A DNA stretch of 64,000 bases from a virus: positions 96,001 through 160,000 of the IMG/VR virus record IMGVR_UViG_3300049218_000295; one strand, written 5' to 3'. A program made the position numbers and the translations under genes. Shown here piece by piece: positions 763 through 59,272 of the stretch (the stretch's first letter is position 1; each line of letters opens with the position of its first letter). The notes below the pieces were generated by a model that saw nothing but the letters and a program-made list of their open reading frames with translations, was not told the origin of the DNA and did not search any database.

Positions 763-3700
763 ATGAGCTTAACCGCGATATTCCAGTGGGACAATTCAGA
801 CTCGACGGCTGACCTAAACCAGCGGTTCTCCTCAATATATGCCAAAGGCATCATCAGCAATACTGGTGGACTGCTTTCGCCTGTTTCGGGACAACTGCAA
901 GTAACACTTTCTCCTTACATCGCTGTTGGCTTCGACGGAATGATGGTGCAAGAAAGTGCCGCCCAGACCTTCAATCTCGTCATCAATCAAACTAACGTCA
1001 TTGCACTTCGAGCTGTACACAATATTGGTGCGGCCCCTACTTTAACCTATGGCGTCTTCGAGATTACTGCTTTCAACAATCTCGTCAATCGGGACCAGTA
1101 TATTGCTTTCGGAGCGGTAACCGTTAGCAGTCCAGCCACCCAAGCTACTACGAATGATATCAGTTATAGCGGTCGAGATCAAAATGATCAAATTCAGCGC
1201 AATCCCTTTCGCGGACGGGTTTCTTCCCAAACCATTACATGTACCGAAGTGGAAGGCAGCCCGGTCCTGGCCACCACCCAGCTTTCAGATTTGAGTGTTG
1301 GTTTAGCAGTCTCGGGCATTGGTATCGCTTCGGCTTCCTACATTACAGCTATTAATAGCCCGGTTTCCACTACTGCCTCCTTTACAACTAGCTCAACGGC
1401 GATTACGGTAAATAGTGTAACCGGAATTTACCCTGGAATGTTGGTTACCGACACGACCAACAGCAACTATATCCCAGCGGGAACTACTGTAACCTCAATC
1501 GTTTCTACTACAGTTTTCATTAGTCAGGCAACTATTGGTACCGCAGCGAATGATACTGTATCCTTCCAGGGAAGCTTTGTTATCAATAACAACGCCATTT
1601 CTCCTGGTGGCTCACAAAGTCTCACTTTTGTCAACCTTCCCGTTCTTACCCCGAACCAAAATTTGCCTGGCGATTTCTACATGGTCAACCAAGGGACCGG
1701 CGATTTGGCGTCCATTTGGGCCTGGAATGGCGAAGTTTGGATTAACATCACGGATTCCCAAAGTATTGAATCTGAACTTACACAACATGAAGAAAATTTC
1801 TTCCAAAACCAAATCCATTTAACTAGTACCCCTGGCGTCAGCGACCAGGCAAGTGCTGCTCTCGGTTCCTATGGTATCCCCGGTTTACTGAACCGATACG
1901 TAACTCAGACTGACCCACAGTTCCCCTCGACTGATGAGGCGGAGGCACTAGTTGGTTTTCCGACATCCCCCGCTCCAAGCGCATCCAACGCCTATATTAC
2001 ACAACAGTATCCAGTAGCCGCCACTACGCAGGTTCTTTTCGCGCTGCCGCCCGGCGGACCAATCCAAATTCAGGCTTCTGAAGGTCCAATCTATGTCGGA
2101 ACCGGACCGGTCAACTCGGCCAATGTTTTCTTTATGCTTATGGACTTTAGCCTCAAAAGGGGCTATGTCAATAATGAGGGCGTGGCCCCTCAAATTGTTG
2201 GGGTCTTCACAGATGGCCTTCTTACTCAGCCATTAGTACCATCGTCCAACGCTAACGTGGACGCCAACGGTTTCTTCACTGGTGACCTCTTCCTTCAAAC
2301 CAGCACGGTTGTGGATACTGGTTTCCGCTTGGTTTATGGCTGCCGTCAAATTCTTTCCTCGGTAGTTAAAGACTTTACAGTAAACACCACCCCCGGAGAC
2401 GACACCATTCCTTCCTTGGTGGTCCAACAGGTGGCCAACATTAAAGGCCGCTCCTTCGATACCTCGACTCCCACCGATGAACAAAATATCAATCTCCGTA
2501 TTGACCTCAACGGTGTTCATTCTTACCTCGGTTCGGTTCTTGATACCAACACCGTGGCTGACGCCGCCGACTTTAAACGTCTAGCCGACGAGCCAACCAT
2601 CGGAAGCTACTTTGACTATAACGTTGGCATCGAGCCAATCTACACCTATTTGAACTCGTCCTTGACGGGTTACACCTACGCATTGGTATCCGGAACGGGG
2701 ACGATCACCTACACCAGTGGTGTCATTCCAGTAGGGGTCCAGGCGGGCAACCTTTTTATTGATGGTGACAATAATCAATATGTCATCCAATCTGTAATCT
2801 CGACCACCCAATTGACTATTGTTTTGCCTAGTACTGGTCTTGCTCCAAGCGCAAGCACTGTTATTACTGCTCCATCAGGAGCTGGAACCGCCCAGAGTGG
2901 CGCGTGCCAAGTAAATAACAACCCACGAAACGTCTTGATTTCTGAAATGAAGATCGATGGCCTTTCTGAAGTCATCGCAGTTCCCTCAATCCAGGCGAAC
3001 AACGCAGAGTTTTCACAACCATTGGGCCAAGTGGCTTATGCACCGGTCCGTCCAGACCAGCGCCTCGAACCGCGCCTCGTTTTCTATGGTGACGCCTGGG
3101 AGAATTTTCAGGACCCAGTAACTGGTGAACAATACGTTAGGAATGCTGGCACAGGCAGCTTTATGATTACCAGCATCTTCACTGATGTTGCGGTAATTGT
3201 CCGTCGCCGTGCTGGGTCTCCACCGCTAAGTGTTTCTATCAACGGCACCACTCCTTTCAACGTCAGTATCTCGGGTGGCGGACTAATCGCGGACGCCGTG
3301 ACCACAGCTTTCGGACCAAAATACGAAGCAGTTCCTATTGCTAAGAACTTGCAAAGTAGAGCAGATTGGAGTGCCACAACACCATCCACTATCACTGCTA
3401 CTATCGCTGCCGCTTCTTCTGAATCCTTTGATATTTATGGCATCTTGTTGATGAAGACCAATGATACCACAGCGGGTACTGTGGTATTGGAGTCTGGGGT
3501 CGCTTTCGCCCAAGCACAAATCATCCAGAATGATGTTGTCAATTCCACCGTCCCCATTCCGCCTCTGACCCCCTATCAACGCGGTGGACGAGTAAGTTAT
3601 GCCGCCAACAACGGCAGCTTTAACACCGCGATCTCGCAGCTTGCGACTCTGGATGGTGCTCCCAATACGAGCGCATCACCTAATGGTACTCTCACAAATT

Positions 3701-51110: not shown

Positions 51111-52169
51111 TCACAGTACAACCTGCCTTTCGGTATCGGTTGGCAATTGTGGGAGGTCGAGATCATCTTCATCGGCGTTGAAGGAAGTGATTTCTTTGTG
51201 CTCCGGAAGATGCCCAGATTTGAGTTTGTGGTTCAAGACCTCAATGATCATATTATAAATGAGACCATGGTTCATGGTGCTGGCACTCAGCATTTCTTTC
51301 ATGCGTGAATTGCGGAGTAGACCATGCAAGCCTTCAATTTTGTTTTCAAACTTACCGAAATCGAAGGTGCCCTTGGTATCAAGGAAGTTGTTAATTACCA
51401 CATGAGACCAAGCCAGGAAGAAACCCCGGCGATAGGCGGTCGCTTTATGATCGTAGTCGCCGAAGATTTCAGCGGTCTGCTTGAGAAAGTTCCGCACTGC
51501 GAAGTCGATGAGCAAAATCTGGCGCGGGTCATGGTCTTCTTGCAGGAAGTTTTTCAGGCGACGTCCAGTAGGTACTGATTCCAAAAAGGCCCCAGAACTT
51601 AACTTGCGCGAAATCCAGAGCACCACTGGGCAGTAAGTGCTCAGAGTCAACCCATTGGCGGTGCTGTTCACCGAAAGTGGGAGAGCCATGTTTTTGCGAC
51701 CGGTCGTCATTTGCTGTCGAATAAGGTCTGCAATAGGCCCGGTGTAAGACTTGGCCAACTCACCGAAAGTGAGCTTTGAAGGCTCCGAGTTGAATTGGTG
51801 GAATAGCCGAATTTCTTCATTGAGGTCGATGTTTACATAGAGTTCGACCGGTAGCTTATAGTCGAGCACGCCGCTGTCTTTCAAAGCCCAAATGCGCTGT
51901 TGACCGTCGATGACGTGGAATTCGCCATCCAGAACGAAGTCATCGGTGCCGCGCTGGGTTTTGCCAATTAGATTAAGCTTCACGCTGTCGATGGGCAAGC
52001 CTTTGCGATAAATGTCGACCAGAGCATTAATCTTTTTCCGCCGTAGAATGCGTTCGCGCTGATAAGCGGGAATCCACTCTTCCTTAAAGCCCTGAATAAG
52101 CTCCTTGGAATTGATGTACCCAATCATCCGGTCCTTGCCGAAACTCACTCCATAGAAATAGTAAAGCAT
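51111..52169 (-). CDS. ParB/DGQHR(DndB)-like domain protein
   Basis: YQRE, VIDGQQR, EEIRLFHQFN; AGGAGG SD. Confidence 0.7.
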   Translation of the reverse strand: MLYYFYGVSFGKDRMIGYINSKELIQGFKEEWIPAYQRERILRRKKINALVDIYRKGLPIDSVKLNLIGKTQRGTDDFVLDGEFHVIDGQQRIWALKDSGVLDYKLPVELYVNIDLNEEIRLFHQFNSEPSKLTFGELAKSYTGPIADLIRQQMTTGRKNMALPLSVNSTANGLTLSTYCPVVLWISRKLSSGAFLESVPTGRRLKNFLQEDHDPRQILLIDFAVRNFLKQTAEIFGDYDHKATAYRRGFFLAWSHVVINNFLDTKGTFDFGKFENKIEGLHGLLRNSRMKEMLSASTMNHGLIYNMIIEVLNHKLKSGHLPEHKEITSFNADEDDLDLPQLPTDTERQVVL

Positions 52170-52349: not shown

Positions 52350-52772
52350 ATGGTGTGTTCCATCAAAGGTTGCAGTAAGCCGAGTGTGAACAGTGAATTC
52401 TGCGAGTATCACTACGCTTGTATTTATTCCACTAAGGGTGCTAAGCGTGGCGACCGGAAACCAAAAAAGCCAAAACCGGTAGCCATGGTAGTACCGGAGC
52501 CAGTTGTTAAAGTTGCTCCGCCGACTAACTCCATCTATTCAAAATTCCTGCCAGTCAATAGCGTCATCAAGGAAATCCCGAAAATTGGGACCTTTGAAGA
52601 AGAGGAATTCGAGGCGAGTCTCGCAAAAGAGAAGAATTCAGCGGCGGGTCAGGAAATCCGAAATTGCCGAAAATGCGGCAAGGTGATAATTGAACGTTTA
52701 CGCCATTGCCGGACCTGTGAACCCCACCACAGTAGTTTGTTCCACAGCGACGGCAATTGGGTCTACTCCTAA
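52350..52772 (+). CDS. Cys-rich hypothetical protein
   Basis: CSIKGC...FCEYH and CRKC...HCRTC. Confidence 0.55.
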   Translation: MVCSIKGCSKPSVNSEFCEYHYACIYSTKGAKRGDRKPKKPKPVAMVVPEPVVKVAPPTNSIYSKFLPVNSVIKEIPKIGTFEEEEFEASLAKEKNSAAGQEIRNCRKCGKVIIERLRHCRTCEPHHSSLFHSDGNWVYS

Positions 52773-52957
52773 GAGTAAATTCCTTCTTCAATTCGGCCAA
52801 GAACAGCAAGAATGTGCTCGCGGCCATGCTCTGTTTCAAGTAGGTCAAGCGGCTTTTTGTCGTCAAGTTCAGGGCGTGCGCGGTCCAACCAGCCATAGGC
52901 TGTGCGGCTACTACCAAAGATTCGAATAGCTTCGTTGATGACGAATTCTTTTGTCAT
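52769..52957 (-). CDS. Xre/MbcA/ParS antitoxin C-terminal domain, stand-alone
   Basis: AIRIFGS..TAYGWLDR...LDDKKPLDLLETEHG...LGRIEEGIYS. Confidence 0.8.
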   Translation of the reverse strand: MTKEFVINEAIRIFGSSRTAYGWLDRARPELDDKKPLDLLETEHGREHILAVLGRIEEGIYS

Positions 52958-53172: not shown

Positions 53173-53247
53173 TGGTGGGGGAGCTTGGGCTTGAACCAAG
53201 GTGAGAAGGATTGCTCCAACTGAGTAAGTCTGCTACTCTACTCCCCC
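53173..53247 (-). ncRNA. tRNA-like RNA without an anticodon loop
   Basis: GGGGGAG/CTCCCCC-A-CCA; D-stem GAGT/ACTC; T-arm CTTGG-TTCAAGC-CCAAG; GGA-GCAA-TCC where the anticodon arm should be. Confidence 0.65.
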
Positions 53248-53252
53248 ATAAA

Positions 53253-53382
53253 TGCCACTGTAAGTGAAGAACCCTTTTACGTGCTTTAACCGCTAAGCTA
53301 CCTGCCGACAAGCGGCAGGGCCAGGATTCGAACCTGGCGTCCCGATCTCCAAAAGATGAAAGATTCTACGGAGAGTGGCGAA
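53253..53382 (-). ncRNA. YrlA/Y-RNA-like element 1 (Gln-type loop, then permuted T, acceptor and D arms)
   Basis: GCCACT/AGTGGC stem; TTCATC; ATC-TTTTGGA-GAT; CCAGG-TTCGAAT-CCTGG; CCTGCCG-CTTGT-CGGCAGG; GCTT-AGCGGTTA-AAGC. Confidence 0.75.
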
Positions 53383-53410
53383 ACAAAATCCTTTTACAGA
53401 AAACTGGAGG

Positions 53411-53474
53411 TGCCACTGTAAATCTCGAAGCGGTTTTATCGTTGCAAGATGAACGCTTCAAATAGAGTGGCGAA
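53411..53474 (-). ncRNA. Y-RNA-like element 2 (Cys-type loop only)
   Basis: GCCACT/AGTGGC; TTGAAGCG/CGCTTCGA; ATC-TTGCAAC-GAT. Confidence 0.7.
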
Positions 53475-53485
53475 TAGAAAATTGT

Positions 53486-53547
53486 TGCTACTGTAGAATC
53501 CTAAGCTTGTTTATCCCCAAGATGAAGGCTTAAGAAAGAGTAGCGAA
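53486..53547 (-). ncRNA. Y-RNA-like element 3 (Pro-type loop only)
   Basis: Compensatory GCTACT/AGTAGC; TCTTAAGC/GCTTAGGA; AT-CTTGGGG-AT. Confidence 0.7.
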
Positions 53548-53561
53548 TTAAAATTTTATGG

Positions 53562-53765
53562 TCAACTGTTGTTATCTTCAGCGATCTGTTCTAGGTCCTT
53601 TTTGTTGAGGGGCTCTTTTGAAAAGATGAAGCCATACATGTCGGAACCCTCAAAAGTCGGGTCCTCATACACGTGGCCTCCAAAGAACTTTGCGACTGTC
53701 TTTAGATCGCCAATCTCTGGTTGTTCTTTCCAATCCCAACTAATTGCTACAGTGTCTTTTGCCAT
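53562..53765 (-). CDS. Hypothetical protein
   Basis: AAGGA SD; 67 aa. Confidence 0.6.
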   Translation of the reverse strand: MAKDTVAISWDWKEQPEIGDLKTVAKFFGGHVYEDPTFEGSDMYGFIFSKEPLNKKDLEQIAEDNNS

Positions 53766-53781
53766 ATCCTTTTATAAATTA

Positions 53782-53906
53782 TGGTCGGGGGAGAAGGAGT
53801 CGAACCCCCATCTTCGCTCAACTGCTAAGAGCGTGTTCTCATGCACCAACTCGGACGATGCGGGCAGTCGCATCTCGCTGTTGCATTACCGTTAAACTAT
53901 CCCCCG
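53782..53906 (-). ncRNA. 125-nt tRNA-like RNA with expanded multi-hairpin interior
   Basis: CGGGGGA/TCCCCCG-A-CCA; TTCGACT T-loop; interior GATGCG/CGCATC and CGCTC/GAGCG hairpins. Confidence 0.65.
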
Positions 53907-53911
53907 AAAAA

Positions 53912-53977
53912 TGCCACTGTAGAACCCACGAGCCGGTTTTCATTTAACAGATGAAAGCTCGCAGAAAGAGTGGCGAA
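53912..53977 (-). ncRNA. Y-RNA-like element 4 (Asn-type loop only)
   Basis: GCCACT/AGTGGC; CTGCGAGCT/GGCTCGTGG; TTTCAT-CTGTTAA-ATGAAA. Confidence 0.72.
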
Positions 53978-53980
53978 AAG

Positions 53981-54532
53981 TTATTGGATATGGCCGAGCC
54001 TTTTGGCCTCAGCCATTACTAAAGCGATGCGTGGGTCATTCCAGTACTGTTGATAAAGCACAGGCCCAAGCAACCTTTTAATGTTTACGAATTCTTGTTC
54101 AAAGGAATGCGACTGAGCATTGAAGAACCAACCAATTTTAGAAACATTTAGTTGACCGGCTAGAAACTTAAAGCCATTTATAGTGGGTCGATACTTGCCC
54201 AGTTTAGCGACTTTCAAAGGCACTTGTGGTTCAACTAATTCCCAGTGATTCAATTGGGCGAAGGTGGTTCCGGCGGTATCTTTACGGCGTTTGGCTATGC
54301 ACATGTTTGCTGGAATAAACTGCGCAGGAGTTTGTTGATTTTGCACTACAATAAATAGGCCTTCCGCCATGGCTTTCGTAAATCGGTGCGGGTATAGACC
54401 TTCATCTCTGCCGGTACTGGAAATCACACGTTTATGACTAAGGATATTGGCTCTCTGCTCTAAAACCACATCTTTGTATAGTCTATGCCCGTTCATCTGA
54501 ATGTCCAAATCGGAAAGTGTATGGTCTATCAT
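53981..54532 (-). CDS. Hypothetical protein
   Basis: 183 aa; GGAG SD. Confidence 0.55.
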   Translation of the reverse strand: MIDHTLSDLDIQMNGHRLYKDVVLEQRANILSHKRVISSTGRDEGLYPHRFTKAMAEGLFIVVQNQQTPAQFIPANMCIAKRRKDTAGTTFAQLNHWELVEPQVPLKVAKLGKYRPTINGFKFLAGQLNVSKIGWFFNAQSHSFEQEFVNIKRLLGPVLYQQYWNDPRIALVMAEAKRLGHIQ

Positions 54533-54663
54533 CTTGGTTCTCCCAAATGTCTTTTATAGCATATAATACCCAAATCGACTTCTTACAACCACCACATGAA
54601 CATGAGGCCTTTTCCTGCCATCAGAGGACAACATTGACATTACACCTTTTATGGAGCACTCAG

Positions 54664-54737
54664 TCTAGCTGGCTGGATTCGAACCAGCGCTCCCTTCGTC
54701 CCAAACGAAGTGCGATACCAGACTTCGCCACAGCTAG
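54664..54737 (-). tRNA. tRNA-Pro(TGG), no adjacent CCA, nested in a longer stem (54652-54750)
   Basis: CTTCG-TTTGGGA-CGAAG; C1:G72, A73. Confidence 0.88.
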
Positions 54738-54772
54738 ACTCAGTGCTCCAGAAAATGGTTCCCGTGGAAATG

Positions 54773-54928
54773 TTGTGACCCTCGGGACAGGTTGTGAGCC
54801 TCCCAGTTAACTAGCCATTCGGGACTTTCAGAGGACTTCTCAGTCAGGTTTCCCTGCATTGCCCCTTACGATCTTGTTCCGAACCCCCTAGTTCAGTTCA
54901 CTACCGTTTAAAAATCACGGCGGTCACG
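54773..54928 (-). ncRNA. Candidate multi-stem structured RNA (about 155 nt)
   Basis: GTGACC/GGTCAC, AACTAG/CTAGTT and TTCGG/CCGAA stems; GNRA hairpins CAGG-GAAA-CCTG and GACT-GAGA-AGTC. Confidence 0.55.
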
Positions 54929-54933
54929 AAGTT

Positions 54934-55053
54934 TGCTACTATAATCTCAAAACCCAGACCTTGCGGTTTTCATGGGTGCGGAATCGAACCGCCCCGGCCT
55001 CTGCCGGTGCCGCCAATAGGCCCCGTGATGAAGGGTTTCAAAAGAGTAGCGAA
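54934..55053 (-). ncRNA. Y-RNA-like element 5 (anticodon-less mini-tRNA payload)
   Basis: GCTACT/AGTAGC; GAAACCC/GGGTTTT; GCC-TATTGGC-GGC; CCGGC-AGAG-GCCGG; GCGG-TTCGATT-CCGC. Confidence 0.7.
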
Positions 55054-55060
55054 TTGGCTT

Positions 55061-55285
55061 TTATAGCTTCAATCGTTTATGGACCTCGTCCCAGTAGACT
55101 CGTCCATGAACTTCGACTACAGCCTCTTCTAGGCGTGAGAGAATTGTCTTCTCTTTCCATCCCGACTTGAGGCCTTCCTTCACAAACTCGCCGTAAGCGA
55201 CGACGTAGCCCTGTGAGTGTAAAGTGTCCAACAGAACAGCTAATGGTAAGCCATGTGTGTCGTAGAGCTTAAAGAGCCCTGACAC
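55061..55285 (-). CDS. Small protein resembling a helical segment of alanyl-tRNA synthetase (start uncertain)
   Basis: LFKLYDTHGLPL...GYVV..GEF compared with AlaRS AFKLYDTYGFPLD...GLxVDxxGF. Confidence 0.6.
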   Translation of the reverse strand: MSGLFKLYDTHGLPLAVLLDTLHSQGYVVAYGEFVKEGLKSGWKEKTILSRLEEAVVEVHGRVYWDEVHKRLKL

Positions 55286-55368
55286 TACCGGTCGCTGATC
55301 CTCGGTGATCCCGATTTGATTTAATAACTTGCCCCCATATGAGTACCCTCCTTAAAGATACTGTTGTT

Positions 55369-55485
55369 TGCCACTGTAAAGATGGAACCCGCATTTGTAC
55401 TGGCGTCCTATCCAATTAGACTATTTTCACGGGATTCGAACCCGATTTCCAGTTGGATTGATGAAAGATTCCTAGAGAGTGGCGA
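55369..55485 (-). ncRNA. Y-RNA-like element 6 (Trp-type loop, T-arm, D-arm, acceptor stem absent)
   Basis: GCCACT/AGTGGC; GGAATCT/GGGTTCC; CGGG-TTCGAAT-CCCG; TAGTCTAATTGGATAGGAC; ACTGG/CCAGT. Confidence 0.72.
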
Positions 55486-57148: not shown

Positions 57149-57484
57149 TCACTCATCAGTAGTAGCTCCATTCTTGTATTCGAGATACGCGTTGAGGATG
57201 GCTTCAATATTCTCTCGGCCCACCGGATTAGCTGAGTGCACGTTGAACTGAAAATCATCCGGAATTCGTACTTTTCCATCAAGATCAGCATCCACCAGCC
57301 ATTTCGCAAAGCCATAACCGGATTCACTTTCAATATCGGAGCCTAAATCGTGATCAAATGAGATATAAGAAGGGCACCCTGATTCCAGGACTACGGTCTT
57401 CGCTTCATCAACATTACGAACCACTACCCAGGAACGCTTGGTCTTAGGAACACGCTCGTCATCGATATAAAGTGACCAACTCAT
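57149..57484 (-). CDS. Cyclic-phosphate-processing receiver-like domain protein
   Basis: LYIDDER.P, ISFDHDLG, GY, VHSANPVG. Confidence 0.8.
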   Translation of the reverse strand: MSWSLYIDDERVPKTKRSWVVVRNVDEAKTVVLESGCPSYISFDHDLGSDIESESGYGFAKWLVDADLDGKVRIPDDFQFNVHSANPVGRENIEAILNAYLEYKNGATTDE

Positions 57485-57711
57485 TTTCGGTACCTTAATC
57501 GTAAACCTTGAATTGAGCCATAGCACGATGGCTTGTTCCAGTGTTTCCAGGGCTTACACATCCCACAACCACACGAAAAATTAGACTTCCGCATTCGACC
57601 CAACTGCTTGGGATCATTTTTCCATTCTTTGACCATCGCGCCCCAAATACGCATACGCTTTTTTGAGACACGTTCTGACTGCTGCCTTCGATAAGCACGA
57701 GACCGAGACAT
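57481..57711 (-). CDS. Small Arg/Lys-rich protein with CxCxxC
   Basis: MSRSRAYRR...SCGCGMCKPWK; AAGGAG SD. Confidence 0.7.
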   Translation of the reverse strand: MSRSRAYRRQQSERVSKKRMRIWGAMVKEWKNDPKQLGRMRKSNFSCGCGMCKPWKHWNKPSCYGSIQGLRLRYRK

Positions 57712-57791: not shown

Positions 57792-58406
57792 CTACACCCA
57801 GCGGAAAATATACCCGCCTGCTGACTTGTACCCGTTTTTACCCCGCAGGCAATTTCTAATATGCCCTCGGTCCACATTCAGTTTGTGCGCAGCATCACGT
57901 ACCATTAAGAATTCGCCCACTTTCTCACCTGTCTCTTTATTGAAAACCTCAAAAGGCTTTGCGCCATTACTCAAAGCGATTTTGGTCCTGTGTTCAGCGC
58001 TGTTGACATGACCGTGGCGTCGTTGGTTAGCAGCGACAATCGCAGCTATTACTTTTGGCTGTTTCATTCTCAGTCGAACTACGTCGGAGATTCTTTGCTT
58101 GGTGATGAGGTTATGGGTGGCTTTCTCACCACCTTTAGTCAAATTGAAGCCACTGGTGGGATCTGTTGAGTCATAATGGTCAATCCAGAAAATCTCGCGT
58201 CGGCAGGCTTCTTCCCAGGTTGCACATTCCTCAATTATAGACCAAACAAACGCAGCCTTACCATACTTTCCTAAAGCTCTAGAAAAGTGCGAACTTTGTT
58301 TCCCAGCTTTGCTTTCGTGGTGCCATCTCCTATCTTTCAATCCCCTGCTTGTGATTCCGATATATACACGTCCGTCTGCATGAGTAGCCTTATAGACAAC
58401 TATCAT
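57792..58406 (-). CDS. GIY-YIG homing endonuclease with C-terminal NUMOD-type DNA-binding region
   Basis: VVYKAT...VYIGIT...R, E..WI, GFN; F..VRDAA...I..CL...SAGGYIFR. Confidence 0.9.
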   Translation of the reverse strand: MIVVYKATHADGRVYIGITSRGLKDRRWHHESKAGKQSSHFSRALGKYGKAAFVWSIIEECATWEEACRREIFWIDHYDSTDPTSGFNLTKGGEKATHNLITKQRISDVVRLRMKQPKVIAAIVAANQRRHGHVNSAEHRTKIALSNGAKPFEVFNKETGEKVGEFLMVRDAAHKLNVDRGHIRNCLRGKNGYKSAGGYIFRWV

Positions 58407-58427: not shown

Positions 58428-59084
58428 TTAATCGTAGTCCCAAGGGTCAAGCCAAAGGCGCAATAGGCTTTTTTGGTCGGCAAAAGCATCCCAATCGCCC
58501 TTGGCAATCATACGTTCTTCCCAGCGTCGCATGCCACGGTTTCCGAGAGTACGACAGTACTTGCGTGCGCCCACACCCCGACGCCAATTACCGTAGTCTC
58601 GGCGGCGACTACGGGTGAAGCCCTTTTTGTCGCGCCAGTCCTTCTTCTTTTGCTTTTCGGCCTCGACTTCGGGGTCACGCTCTTTAGCGGAATAGTCCAC
58701 TGGGATTTTTTGGCGGTAGTGCGCACCGTTGCGAGGGTACCAATGGGAATAATCGTCGCGGAGACAGCTACAGTAGCGACGATAACGGTGATGTCTTTCG
58801 CAAACACGTGGCAGGCCGCCATTAAGAACGGCGGTCTCGAACTCTTTATAGGAGAGTTTGAGTTGCCCACCACCGCGACCAAGGTGGTAGAGATAGGTAA
58901 GAGTATCAAGTCGGATTTGATGGCTGGGCTTTACAGGCTCGGGTTCGGGGTCACGCCAAGGGGCGTAGTAGCGATATGGGGGTGCCCAGCAGGGGTCACC
59001 GTGCTGAGATTTGTAGAATTCATAAGCGGATGCTATGAACTGACGTTGAACGTCTTCGGTCCAAGGGGATGATACAGAATGCAT
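58428..59084 (-). CDS. Arg/Trp/Tyr-rich basic hypothetical protein
   Basis: 218 aa; AAGGAG SD; ends DPWDYD. Confidence 0.65.
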   Translation of the reverse strand: MHSVSSPWTEDVQRQFIASAYEFYKSQHGDPCWAPPYRYYAPWRDPEPEPVKPSHQIRLDTLTYLYHLGRGGGQLKLSYKEFETAVLNGGLPRVCERHHRYRRYCSCLRDDYSHWYPRNGAHYRQKIPVDYSAKERDPEVEAEKQKKKDWRDKKGFTRSRRRDYGNWRRGVGARKYCRTLGNRGMRRWEERMIAKGDWDAFADQKSLLRLWLDPWDYD

Positions 59085-59145
59085 AGTTTATAGGCTCCTT
59101 TACTAATGACCTATAAACATATAGTCCTCCCTTTGTGTGTCAAGT

Positions 59146-59210
59146 GATGAAAGATTGCGCCGAGAGCGGTGAACAAGTCCCCAAGACCAGCCGCTATAAT
59201 TGGACAACCC
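59146..59210 (-). ncRNA. Circularly permuted copy of the Y-RNA-like scaffold in a 5' leader
   Basis: GGGTTG..ATTATAGCGG-loop-CCGCTCTC..CAATCT-TTCATC. Confidence 0.5.
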
Positions 59211-59272
59211 TTTGAGGCCTTTTTGGGGCCTCACATCAAAGGTAACACAGGTTGTGGACCATGTCAATCCAT

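What the first reader, a model, noticed from the sequence alone, without database searches (positions are those of the whole stretch)
53253..55485. Family of six Y-RNA-like scaffolds, each carrying a different tRNA fragment: a candidate anticodon/tRNA decoy library
Seen in sequence (minus strand): six elements share GCYACUCU-[P2]-UUCAUC-[payload]-[P2']-UAYAGURGC. P1 covaries (GCCACU/AGUGGC in four copies, GCUACU/AGUAGC in two), and P2 differs in sequence yet pairs in every copy. Payloads differ. Three are bare 7-nt loops that read as anticodon loops: UUGCAAC (Cys), CUUGGGG (Pro), CUGUUAA (Asn). One is a UUUUGGA (Gln) loop followed by T-arm, loop-closed acceptor stem and D-arm, i.e. a circularly permuted tRNA. 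One is an AUCCAAC (Trp, weakest call) loop plus T- and D-arms without acceptor. One is a mini-tRNA without anticodon. Established: the permuted T-acceptor-D layout on a terminal stem is the architecture of bacterial YrlA Y RNAs, which bind Ro60/TROVE proteins and co-occur with RNA repair genes. Inference: a modular set of non-chargeable tRNA mimics acting as decoys or sensors for host anticodon nucleases, or as Ro60 tethers. No Ro60 gene is visible in this window, and no canonical Gln, Asn or Trp tRNA either.
Basis: partly seen in the sequence, partly recalled or inferred. Interest (0 to 1): 0.95.

Follow-up and report, generated by a model that had tools for sequence, protein, structure and literature searches.

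The report
Phage Y-RNA gene array, Ro60 missing
Six small folded RNA genes inside a large phage's tRNA cluster are real and form a diverged branch of Y RNAs, the partner RNAs of the ring protein Ro60; they are not a library of anticodon decoys, and no Ro60 gene is visible in this incomplete phage genome.

Summary
Six minus-strand elements (55370-55483, 54935-55050, 53913-53974, 53487-53544, 53412-53471, 53254-53379) share a handle: P1, an internal loop, P2 and UUCAUC. A covariance model finds exactly these six in the 169-kb record.

The same handle occurs in three other large phages: four copies in G001, at least five in L250 and three in L247. In a 14-sequence alignment P1 is 100% paired and P2 90% paired, and 12 of their 15 pairs change on both sides.

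In all three other phages the copies are co-oriented with a diverged Ro60/Rsr gene, 74 nt to 2.2 kb away. That protein hits Pfam vWA_Ro60, and the top 12 PDB matches of its model are all Ro60. The L250 and L247 copies carry CGAAG, CGAGG or similar at the handle position where this phage has CUCU; CGAA is the known Ro60 contact motif.

These are therefore Y RNAs, both YrlA-like tRNA mimics and YrlB-like hairpins, of a variant that Rfam's YrlA model misses (24 bits against a threshold of 69).

The anticodon-decoy reading is not supported. Homologous loops are 7 to 20 nt long and share CUUG.AA and CGGC.AAA themes.

This record (66% complete) shows no Ro60 by five probes.

Earlier notes of this scan report similar phage Ro60/RNA arrays on other DNA.

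The parts
55370..55483 (-). E1: handle plus cargo made of a T arm (55430-55444) and a D arm (55405-55421), with no acceptor hairpin
   Evidence: (R2 46.4 bits)
54935..55050 (-). E2: handle whose UUCAU/AUGAA stem encloses a long hairpin (54996-55022) and a T-arm-like hairpin with a UUCGAUU loop (54974-54995)
   Evidence: (R2 27.7 bits)
53913..53974 (-). E3: hairpin-only copy (YrlB-like), P3 loop CUGUUAA; followed after 6 nt by an aberrant tRNA-like gene
   Evidence: 62.5 bits
53487..53544 (-). E4: hairpin-only copy, loop CUUGGGG
   Evidence: 65.1 bits
53412..53471 (-). E5: hairpin-only copy, loop CUUGCAACG
   Evidence: 77.9 bits
53254..53379 (-). E6: handle plus a YrlA-type tRNA mimic: T arm 53321-53337, loop-closed acceptor hairpin 53301-53319, D arm 53283-53298; followed after 6 nt by a tRNA-like gene
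   Evidence: Rfam YrlA 24.1 bits, aligned through T arm, acceptor and D arm; R2 31.4 bits
59103..59235 (-). Circularly permuted copy of the handle (P2' strand, UAUAGCGG, loop, CCGCUCU, P2 strand, UUCAUC) ending at the ribosome-binding site of ORF 58428-59084
53176..53247 (-). tRNA-like gene A with a CCA end and a degenerate anticodon arm, 6 nt downstream of E6
   Evidence: (tRNA 31.7 bits); not called by ARAGORN
53785..53906 (-). tRNA-like gene B with a 49-nt structured insertion in the D region and a 9-nt 'anticodon' loop, 6 nt downstream of E3
   Evidence: (tRNA 34.3 bits)

Best explanation
The six elements are genes for Y-RNA-type non-coding RNAs. Each has a constant docking handle: a 6-bp terminal stem P1, an asymmetric internal loop (5' CU..., 3' U-rich then ACA), an 8-10-bp stem P2, and a junction with invariant UUCAUC and an A-rich 3' strand. 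The handle is the binding site for a Ro60/Rsr ring protein of the diverged clade found in other large phages. The variable top is the effector module. In E6, and partly in E1 and E2, it is a tRNA-elbow mimic as in YrlA. In E3 to E5 it is a small loop as in YrlB. By analogy with characterised Ro60-Y RNA particles, the RNAs would tether Ro60 to an exoribonuclease such as host PNPase, or to tRNA-recognising enzymes, or gate that access. The RNAs are probably cut out of the long tRNA-operon transcript: no terminators lie in the region, and tRNA-like genes start 6 nt after E3 and E6. Shown here: the family, its covarying structure, its homology across four phages, its linkage to Ro60 genes in three of them, and the Ro60 identity of that protein. 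Inferred: Ro60 binding by the handle, the effector role of the cargo, the processing, and the source of Ro60 for this phage (its unsequenced third, or the host).
For: A model built from only E4 and E5 (R1) recovers copies in G001 and L250 at E of 1e-4 to 1e-9. R2 finds 6 copies in G000, 4 in G001, 4 in L250 and 3 in L247, and a fifth, YrlA-like handle copy in L250 was read by eye. In G001 the four copies end 74 nt upstream of a co-oriented 544-aa ORF. That ORF hits Pfam vWA_Ro60 at 30.4 bits against a cut-off of 27.7 and phrog_850 over nearly its full length. Its relatives carry TROVE plus vWA_Ro60, and JGI names it Ro ribonucleoprotein. An AlphaFold model (pLDDT 76) has Ro60 structures as its top 12 PDB hits, aligned over the full length. 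The L250 and L247 copies lie 85 nt upstream and 1.6-2.2 kb downstream of their Ro60 genes, on the same strand. They carry CGCGAAG, CGAGG or similar at the exact handle position where G000 and G001 have CUCU. CGAA is the published Ro60-contact motif (PMC4201824, PMC12135203). Each phage has both tRNA-mimic and hairpin-only copies, the pattern reported for bacterial Y RNAs (PMC4201824). G000 and G001 share almost no proteins (14 scattered hits) yet have near-identical handles, which argues for a shared protein partner.
Against: No Ro60 gene was found in the 168,948 bp of this record with TROVE, vWA_Ro60, phrog_850, the profile of the phage clade, or tblastn. In the other three phages the gene is within about 2 kb. 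The G000 handle lacks the CGAA motif. Rfam YrlA scores only 24.1 bits against a gathering score of 69. P3 shows no covariation and is only 71% paired. There are no expression, binding or processing data. The host is unknown.
Confidence: 0.75

Rival explanations
1. Orphan handle RNAs work with a partner other than Ro60. Candidates are a host factor, RNase P, PNPase or tRNA-modifying enzymes bound directly (an RNA sponge), or a phage protein such as the basic 218-aa product of ORF 58428-59084, whose leader carries a permuted handle (autoregulation).
For: No Ro60 was found in 169 kb. The CGAA motif is absent. A permuted handle lies directly before the ribosome-binding site of ORF 58428-59084. The elements are dispersed among ORFs rather than forming a tight array before a Ro60 gene.
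Against: G001 has the same CUCU handle and does have an adjacent Ro60. The 218-aa protein has no homologue in G001 and only two known relatives, so it cannot be the partner common to all handle-bearing phages. The record is only 66% complete.
Confidence: 0.12
2. One reading: a library of non-chargeable anticodon or tRNA mimics that act as decoys or sensors for host anticodon nucleases.
For: Four or five of the ten hairpin-only loops are 7 nt long on a 5-bp stem, with U at position 2 and usually a purine at position 6. The RNAs lie in a tRNA cluster. A cREC_REC gene, predicted to process cyclic phosphates, is 1.7 kb away (PMC7824862).
Against: Loop length ranges from 7 to 20 nt. The leading C is scaffold. 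Two loops have G at the U33 position. The loops fall into two homologous themes rather than diverse anticodons. In E6 and the G001 tRNA-mimic copy the local hairpin loop is 5 nt. In the tRNA-mimic copies the handle occupies the anticodon-stem side, so the small loop of the hairpin-only copies sits where the tRNA body would be, not where an anticodon would be.
Confidence: 0.05
3. Mere punctuation of the tRNA operon: RNase III or RNase E processing hairpins, or attenuators, with no function in trans.
For: The elements lie between tRNA genes and ORFs on the transcribed strand. No terminators or promoters were detected nearby.
Against: Invariant unpaired motifs are conserved across otherwise unrelated phages. 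tRNA-elbow cargo is present. Ro60 genes are linked in three phages.
Confidence: 0.05
4. Circularly permuted tRNA genes that mature into decoding tRNAs.
For: E6 has the order T arm, acceptor 3' strand, loop, acceptor 5' strand, D arm.
Against: E6 has no anticodon arm of tRNA dimensions, three copies have no tRNA parts at all, and the architecture equals that of YrlA.
Confidence: 0.01

Closest known systems
Bacterial and mycobacteriophage Y RNAs YrlA and YrlB with Ro60/Rsr (Rfam RF02553; Chen et al. 2014, PMC4201824)
   Same: A terminal 5'-3' stem with an internal loop. One RNA per genome carries T arm, loop-closed acceptor and D arm on that stem. It is accompanied by simple long hairpins with small loops. 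In the homologous loci the RNAs are encoded on the same strand within 2.2 kb of Ro60.
   Different: The handle sequence differs (GCYACUCU ... UUCAUC ... ACAGURGC). There is no GNCGAAN0-1G motif. There are 6 copies rather than 2. The genes are embedded in a tRNA gene cluster. Rfam scores 24 bits against a gathering score of 69. No Ro60 gene is present in the available record. An extra hairpin or junction (UUCAUC) lies between the handle and the tRNA-like domain.
Thermus phage phiLo Ro60 with Yrl1 and Yrl2 (PMC12135203; PDB 9KOP, 9L5Y)
   Same: Phage-encoded Ro60 with Y-like RNAs beside the gene, each a stem-bulge-stem. The G001 Ro60 model matches 9KOP and 9L5Y.
   Different: The phiLo RNAs carry CGAA in the bulge and number two. 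Here the motif is replaced by CUCU, and the family is expanded with tRNA-mimic cargo.
Circularly permuted tRNA genes of the red alga Cyanidioschyzon merolae (from my own knowledge)
   Same: The 3' half precedes the 5' half, with the acceptor ends joined by a short linker.
   Different: Those mature into real tRNAs through a bulge-helix-bulge splicing motif. Here there is no anticodon arm and no such motif.
Phage tRNAs that counter anticodon nucleases (T4 and T5 type; from my own knowledge)
   Same: Location in a phage tRNA cluster.
   Different: Those are complete, chargeable tRNAs. These RNAs are not.

Membership tests
Y RNA (YrlA/YrlB type, Ro60 partner) | Encoded within a few kb of a Ro60/Rsr gene and on the same strand | tested here: not met
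   No Ro60 was found in the 169-kb record, which is 66% complete. The feature is met for the homologous copies in G001 (74 nt), L250 (85 nt) and L247 (1.6-2.2 kb).
Y RNA (YrlA/YrlB type, Ro60 partner) | Stem formed by the 5' and 3' ends, interrupted by an internal loop or bulge | tested here: met
   P1 is 100% paired and P2 90.5% paired, with covariation in 12 of their 15 pairs.
Y RNA (YrlA/YrlB type, Ro60 partner) | GNCGAAN0-1G / CGAA motif near the 5' end (Ro60 contact) | tested here: not met
   G000 and G001 copies have CUCU at that position. L250 and L247 homologues have CGCGAAG, CGAGG or CGUAG there.
Y RNA (YrlA/YrlB type, Ro60 partner) | At least one RNA per genome with a tRNA-like domain (T arm, closed acceptor, D arm) | tested here: met
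   E6 aligns to the YrlA model through this domain. E1 has T and D arms only.
Y RNA (YrlA/YrlB type, Ro60 partner) | Score at or above the Rfam RF02553 gathering threshold | tested here: not met
   24.1 bits against 69. The phage homologues next to Ro60 also fail, at 24-41 bits.
Y RNA (YrlA/YrlB type, Ro60 partner) | Physical binding to Ro60 | not testable with these tools
   Needs EMSA or co-immunoprecipitation.
Anticodon stem-loop decoy | A 7-nt loop with U33 and purine 37 on a 5-bp stem, kept in homologues | tested here: not met
   Loops are 7-20 nt long, 2 of 10 have G at position 2, and the loops share homologous themes.
Permuted tRNA gene | All tRNA parts present, including the anticodon arm, so that a decoding tRNA can be made | tested here: not met
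   E6 has no anticodon arm of tRNA dimensions. ARAGORN and the Rfam tRNA model do not call it.
Ro60/Rsr (the protein next to the G001 copies) | TROVE HEAT-repeat ring plus a C-terminal vWA domain with MIDAS | tested here: met
   vWA_Ro60 above the cut-off. The DSSGS motif is present in the sequence. Full-length fold matches to 2NVO, 1YVP, 9KOP and human Ro60. The Pfam TROVE model itself does not reach significance.

The most novel reading that the evidence does not exclude
The CUCU/UUCAUC handle marks a re-specified Ro60-RNA interface. It has spread among otherwise unrelated large phages as a modular kit (one handle, exchangeable tRNA-elbow or loop cargo, and even a permuted copy wired into an mRNA leader). 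In this phage the kit works without a phage Ro60 gene, either by capturing a host Ro60 or through a different handle-binding protein.
Probability: 0.2. Interest if true: 0.6.

Novelty: new variant of a known kind. Interest (0 to 1): 0.45.

Why it matters
Ro60 and Y RNAs are conserved from bacteria to humans, yet their roles in bacteria and phages are poorly understood. This family shows three things. Large tRNA-rich phages carry expanded sets of 4-6 Y-like RNAs built on one handle. The supposedly diagnostic CGAA contact motif can be replaced while the Ro60 gene linkage is kept (G001). Current Rfam models miss these RNAs. The family offers a natural series (CGAAG handle against CUCU handle, each with its own Ro60 clade) for testing how Ro60 recognises Y RNA, and a set of cargo modules for testing what Y RNAs recruit during infection. 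It also removes a more exciting but unsupported reading, the anticodon-decoy library.

Tried and rejected
After filtering, just one true relative (G001) emerged.
- Single-protein scans with ORF 58428-59084 and with the 558-aa VWA protein found no kin.
- The profile scan of 185,579 bacterial and archaeal genomes for the phage Ro60 clade found nothing. It is a pattern-limited search, so this is weak evidence that the clade is phage-specific.
- The 558-aa VWA protein at record positions 65,823-67,499 (lead from earlier notes) has an N-terminal VWA domain and no likeness to Ro60. It is rejected as a hidden Ro60.
- G000 and G001 share no synteny, so the missing Ro60 cannot be placed by gene order.
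- Neighbouring ORFs of the array have no homologues near the arrays of the other phages, apart from a weak cREC_REC-like hit in L250.
- Hammerhead, C/D-box and permuted-tRNA readings were considered by eye and dropped, because the core motifs are absent.
- RtcB is absent from the record.
Full report
**What is there.** The window is bases 96,001-160,000 of a 168,948-bp IMG/VR phage record that CheckV rates 66% complete. It carries 24-27 tRNA genes, all on the minus strand.

On that strand six elements share GCYACUCU, a variable strand, UUCAUC, a variable interior, an A-rich stretch, the complementary strand, and (U)AYAGURGC. Their coordinates are 55370-55483 (E1), 54935-55050 (E2), 53913-53974 (E3), 53487-53544 (E4), 53412-53471 (E5) and 53254-53379 (E6). 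The 5' half of the motif occurs 6 times against 0.2 expected by chance.

E3 to E5 are 58-62-nt hairpins. E1, E2 and E6 are 114-126 nt long and have extra helices in the interior.

**Homologues and structure.** A pattern scan found one related record, G001 (182 kb, complete). It has four tandem copies.

A covariance model built only from E4 and E5 (R1) recovered E3, E1, three G001 copies and two copies in a metagenome contig, L250, at E-values between 1e-4 and 1e-10. The rebuilt model R2 gave these results:
- exactly the six copies in the whole G000 record;
- exactly four in G001;
- four in L250;
- three in the 459-kb phage L247/G002, at 24.3, 14.8 and 7.8 bits.

A further YrlA-like copy with the same handle is visible in L250 at about 1779-1910.

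On the 14-sequence alignment A5:
- P1 is paired in 100% of cells, and 4 of its 6 pairs change on both sides.
- P2 is paired in 90.5% of cells, and 8 of its 9 pairs change on both sides.
- Sliding the partner strand drops pairing to 35-48%.
- No shuffle of 500 reaches the covariation score.
- P3 (UUCAU with AUGAA/AUAAA) is invariant on its 5' side, shows no covariation and is only 71% paired.

The alignment was fitted to the model, so these counts lean towards the structure, but the margins are large. Frequent G-U pairs show that the minus strand is the RNA strand.

**What it is.** In G001 the array ends 74 nt upstream of a co-oriented 544-aa ORF. Several results identify that protein as Ro60:
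- It passes Pfam's vWA_Ro60 cut-off.
- It matches phrog_850 ('RNA-binding protein') over almost its whole length.
- JGI names it '60 kDa SS-A/Ro ribonucleoprotein', and its more distant relatives carry TROVE plus vWA_Ro60.
- A predicted structure (pLDDT 76) has D. radiodurans Rsr, Xenopus and human Ro60 and Thermus phage phiLo Ro60 as its top 12 PDB matches, aligned end to end.

Relatives of this Ro60 (29-33% identity) lie 85 nt downstream of the L250 copies and 1.6-2.2 kb upstream of the L247 copies, on the same strand.

At the handle position where G000 and G001 read C-U-C-U, the L250 and L247 copies read CGCGAAG, CGAGG or CGUAG. This is the CGAA-type motif that Chen et al. (PMC4201824) and the phiLo study (PMC12135203) assign to Ro60 contact, and it sits in the same place, the 5' side of the internal loop next to the terminal stem.

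Rfam's YrlA model aligns E6 through T arm, loop-closed acceptor and D arm, but scores only 24.1 bits against a gathering score of 69. The copies that sit next to Ro60 genes in other phages also stay below threshold, at 24-41 bits.

Every lineage has both tRNA-mimic and hairpin-only copies. This is the YrlA-plus-YrlB pattern described for bacteria (PMC4201824).

I therefore read the six elements as Y RNAs of a diverged, expanded phage subfamily.

**The cargo and the anticodon idea.** E6 and the G001 copy at L124 12495-12621 carry a T arm (UUCGAAU loop), an acceptor hairpin closed by 4-5 nt, UA or UC, and a D arm with GG. E1 keeps the T and D arms only. E2 has a T-arm-like hairpin plus a second hairpin inside UUCAU/AUGAA.

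In these copies the handle joins the tRNA-like body on the anticodon-stem side, as in YrlA. The UUCAUC segment either closes the junction or forms a short local hairpin with a 5-nt loop in E6 and G001. That hairpin would correspond to a variable arm rather than an anticodon arm. The data cannot decide between the two pairings.

For the ten hairpin-only copies the P3 loops are:
- CUUGCAACG, CGGCAAAA, CUUGGGG and CUAUACA(C);
- CACUUGAAACG, CUGUUAA, CGGCUAAA and CUUGUAA;
- CUUCCAC and a 20-nt insert.

Only half are 7 nt long. The first C is part of the invariant UUCAUC, and two loops have G where U33 would be. The loops group into CUUG.AA-like and CGGC.AAA-like themes shared between phages. The 'Cys' (E5) and 'Thr' (L250) readings are thus one homologous loop differing at one base and read in different registers.

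**The open point.** G000 shows no Ro60 with Pfam TROVE, vWA_Ro60, phrog_850, the clade profile A1, or tblastn with eleven Ro60 proteins. A 558-aa VWA protein elsewhere in the record has an N-terminal VWA domain and is not Ro60. RtcB is also absent.

G000 and G001 share only 14 scattered protein matches and no synteny, so gene order cannot predict where a Ro60 gene would be. The near-identical handle in two otherwise unrelated phages argues for the same protein partner.

A pattern-limited scan found no member of this Ro60 clade in 185,579 prokaryote genomes. The partner gene therefore most likely lies in the unsequenced third of the phage. Loss of the gene with use of a host Ro60, or a different partner, cannot be excluded.

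This suggests the handle is a portable protein-binding module. That ORF's product has only two known relatives and none in G001, so it is unlikely to be the common partner.

**How it probably works.** This paragraph is inferred from the characterised systems in PMC4201824 and PMC12135203. The RNAs would be excised from the tRNA-operon transcript. No terminator or promoter consensus lies inside the region, and tRNA-like genes begin 6 nt after E3 and E6, so RNase P would create those 3' ends. The handle docks on the outer surface of Ro60. The tRNA-elbow or loop cargo recruits or occludes partners such as PNPase, RNase P, the CCA-adding enzyme or tRNA-modifying enzymes. This would redirect RNA quality control or decay during infection. 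A cREC_REC gene 1.7 kb away belongs to a family proposed to process cyclic phosphate ends in phage RNA repair (PMC7824862). That fits an RNA-damage context but proves nothing.

**Novelty.** Phage Ro60 and phage Y RNAs are already known (22 phages in PMC4201824, phiLo in PMC12135203, and TROVE in some jumbo phages in PMC7824862). Four features were not found in Rfam 15 or in the papers searched:
- this handle (UUCAUC junction, with CUCU in place of CGAA);
- the expansion to 4-6 copies;
- the interleaving with tRNA genes;
- an array with no Ro60 gene in reach.

I classify the finding as a new variant of a known kind.

Earlier notes of this scan describe comparable handle-plus-cargo arrays beside Ro60-like genes in other phages (e1-5935525, e1-5706455, e1-5790169, e1-5642347, e1-5924251). 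I did not test those.

**Limits.** There is no experimental evidence of any kind, and the host is unknown. Only four lineages were compared.

Noticed in passing
window 53176-53247 (-): tRNA-like gene with a normal acceptor stem, T arm and CCA end, but a 6-bp hairpin in place of the D arm and a degenerate anticodon arm (3-4-nt loop). It starts 6 nt after E6. Rfam tRNA scores 31.7 bits; ARAGORN does not call it.
   Followed up: partly
window 53785-53906 (-): tRNA-like gene with a 49-nt structured insertion in the D region, a 9-nt 'anticodon' loop (UUAGCAGUU) and a CCA end. It starts 6 nt after E3.
   Followed up: partly
window 59103-59235 (-): Circularly permuted copy of the Y-RNA handle. P1 is closed by a loop and UUCAUC runs into the ribosome-binding site of a basic, Trp/Arg-rich 218-aa ORF (58428-59084) of no known family.
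   Followed up: partly
window 57149-57526 (-): ORF with a cREC_REC domain (PF20274, 80 bits), a predicted cyclic-phosphate-processing receiver domain linked to phage RNA repair. A weak tblastn match (E 0.002) to it lies inside the tRNA/Y-RNA cluster of L250 at 3347-3556.
   Followed up: partly
window 55061-55285 (-): 74-aa ORF between E1 and E2 with a sub-threshold match (17.8 bits, E 0.0013) to the LyDThGlP segment of alanyl-tRNA synthetase (PF01411 positions 387-424), and a match to phrog_22967. It may be a small tRNA-binding protein.
   Followed up: no
window 52769-52957 (-) and 51111-52169 (-): Xre/MbcA/ParS-type antitoxin C-terminal domain (46 bits) with no obvious toxin beside it, followed by a protein similar to the GmrSD N-terminal domain (DUF262).
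   Followed up: no
record 160856-161011 (just beyond the window's end); L125 4918-4995 in G001: Two adjacent tRNAs with a CUA anticodon (amber-reading; ARAGORN labels them 'Pyl') in this phage and one in G001. This may be suppressor tRNAs or TAG recoding.
   Followed up: no
L250 4400-4600 and L255 4400-5000: Other phage Ro60 genes (L250, L255, L258) also sit directly after tRNA arrays, with further tRNA-like or YrlA-like RNAs that all score below the Rfam thresholds. Rfam's YrlA model seems to miss most phage Y RNAs.
   Followed up: partly
window 57792-58406 (-): GIY-YIG/NUMOD homing-endonuclease gene between the cREC gene and the ORF with the permuted handle.
   Followed up: no
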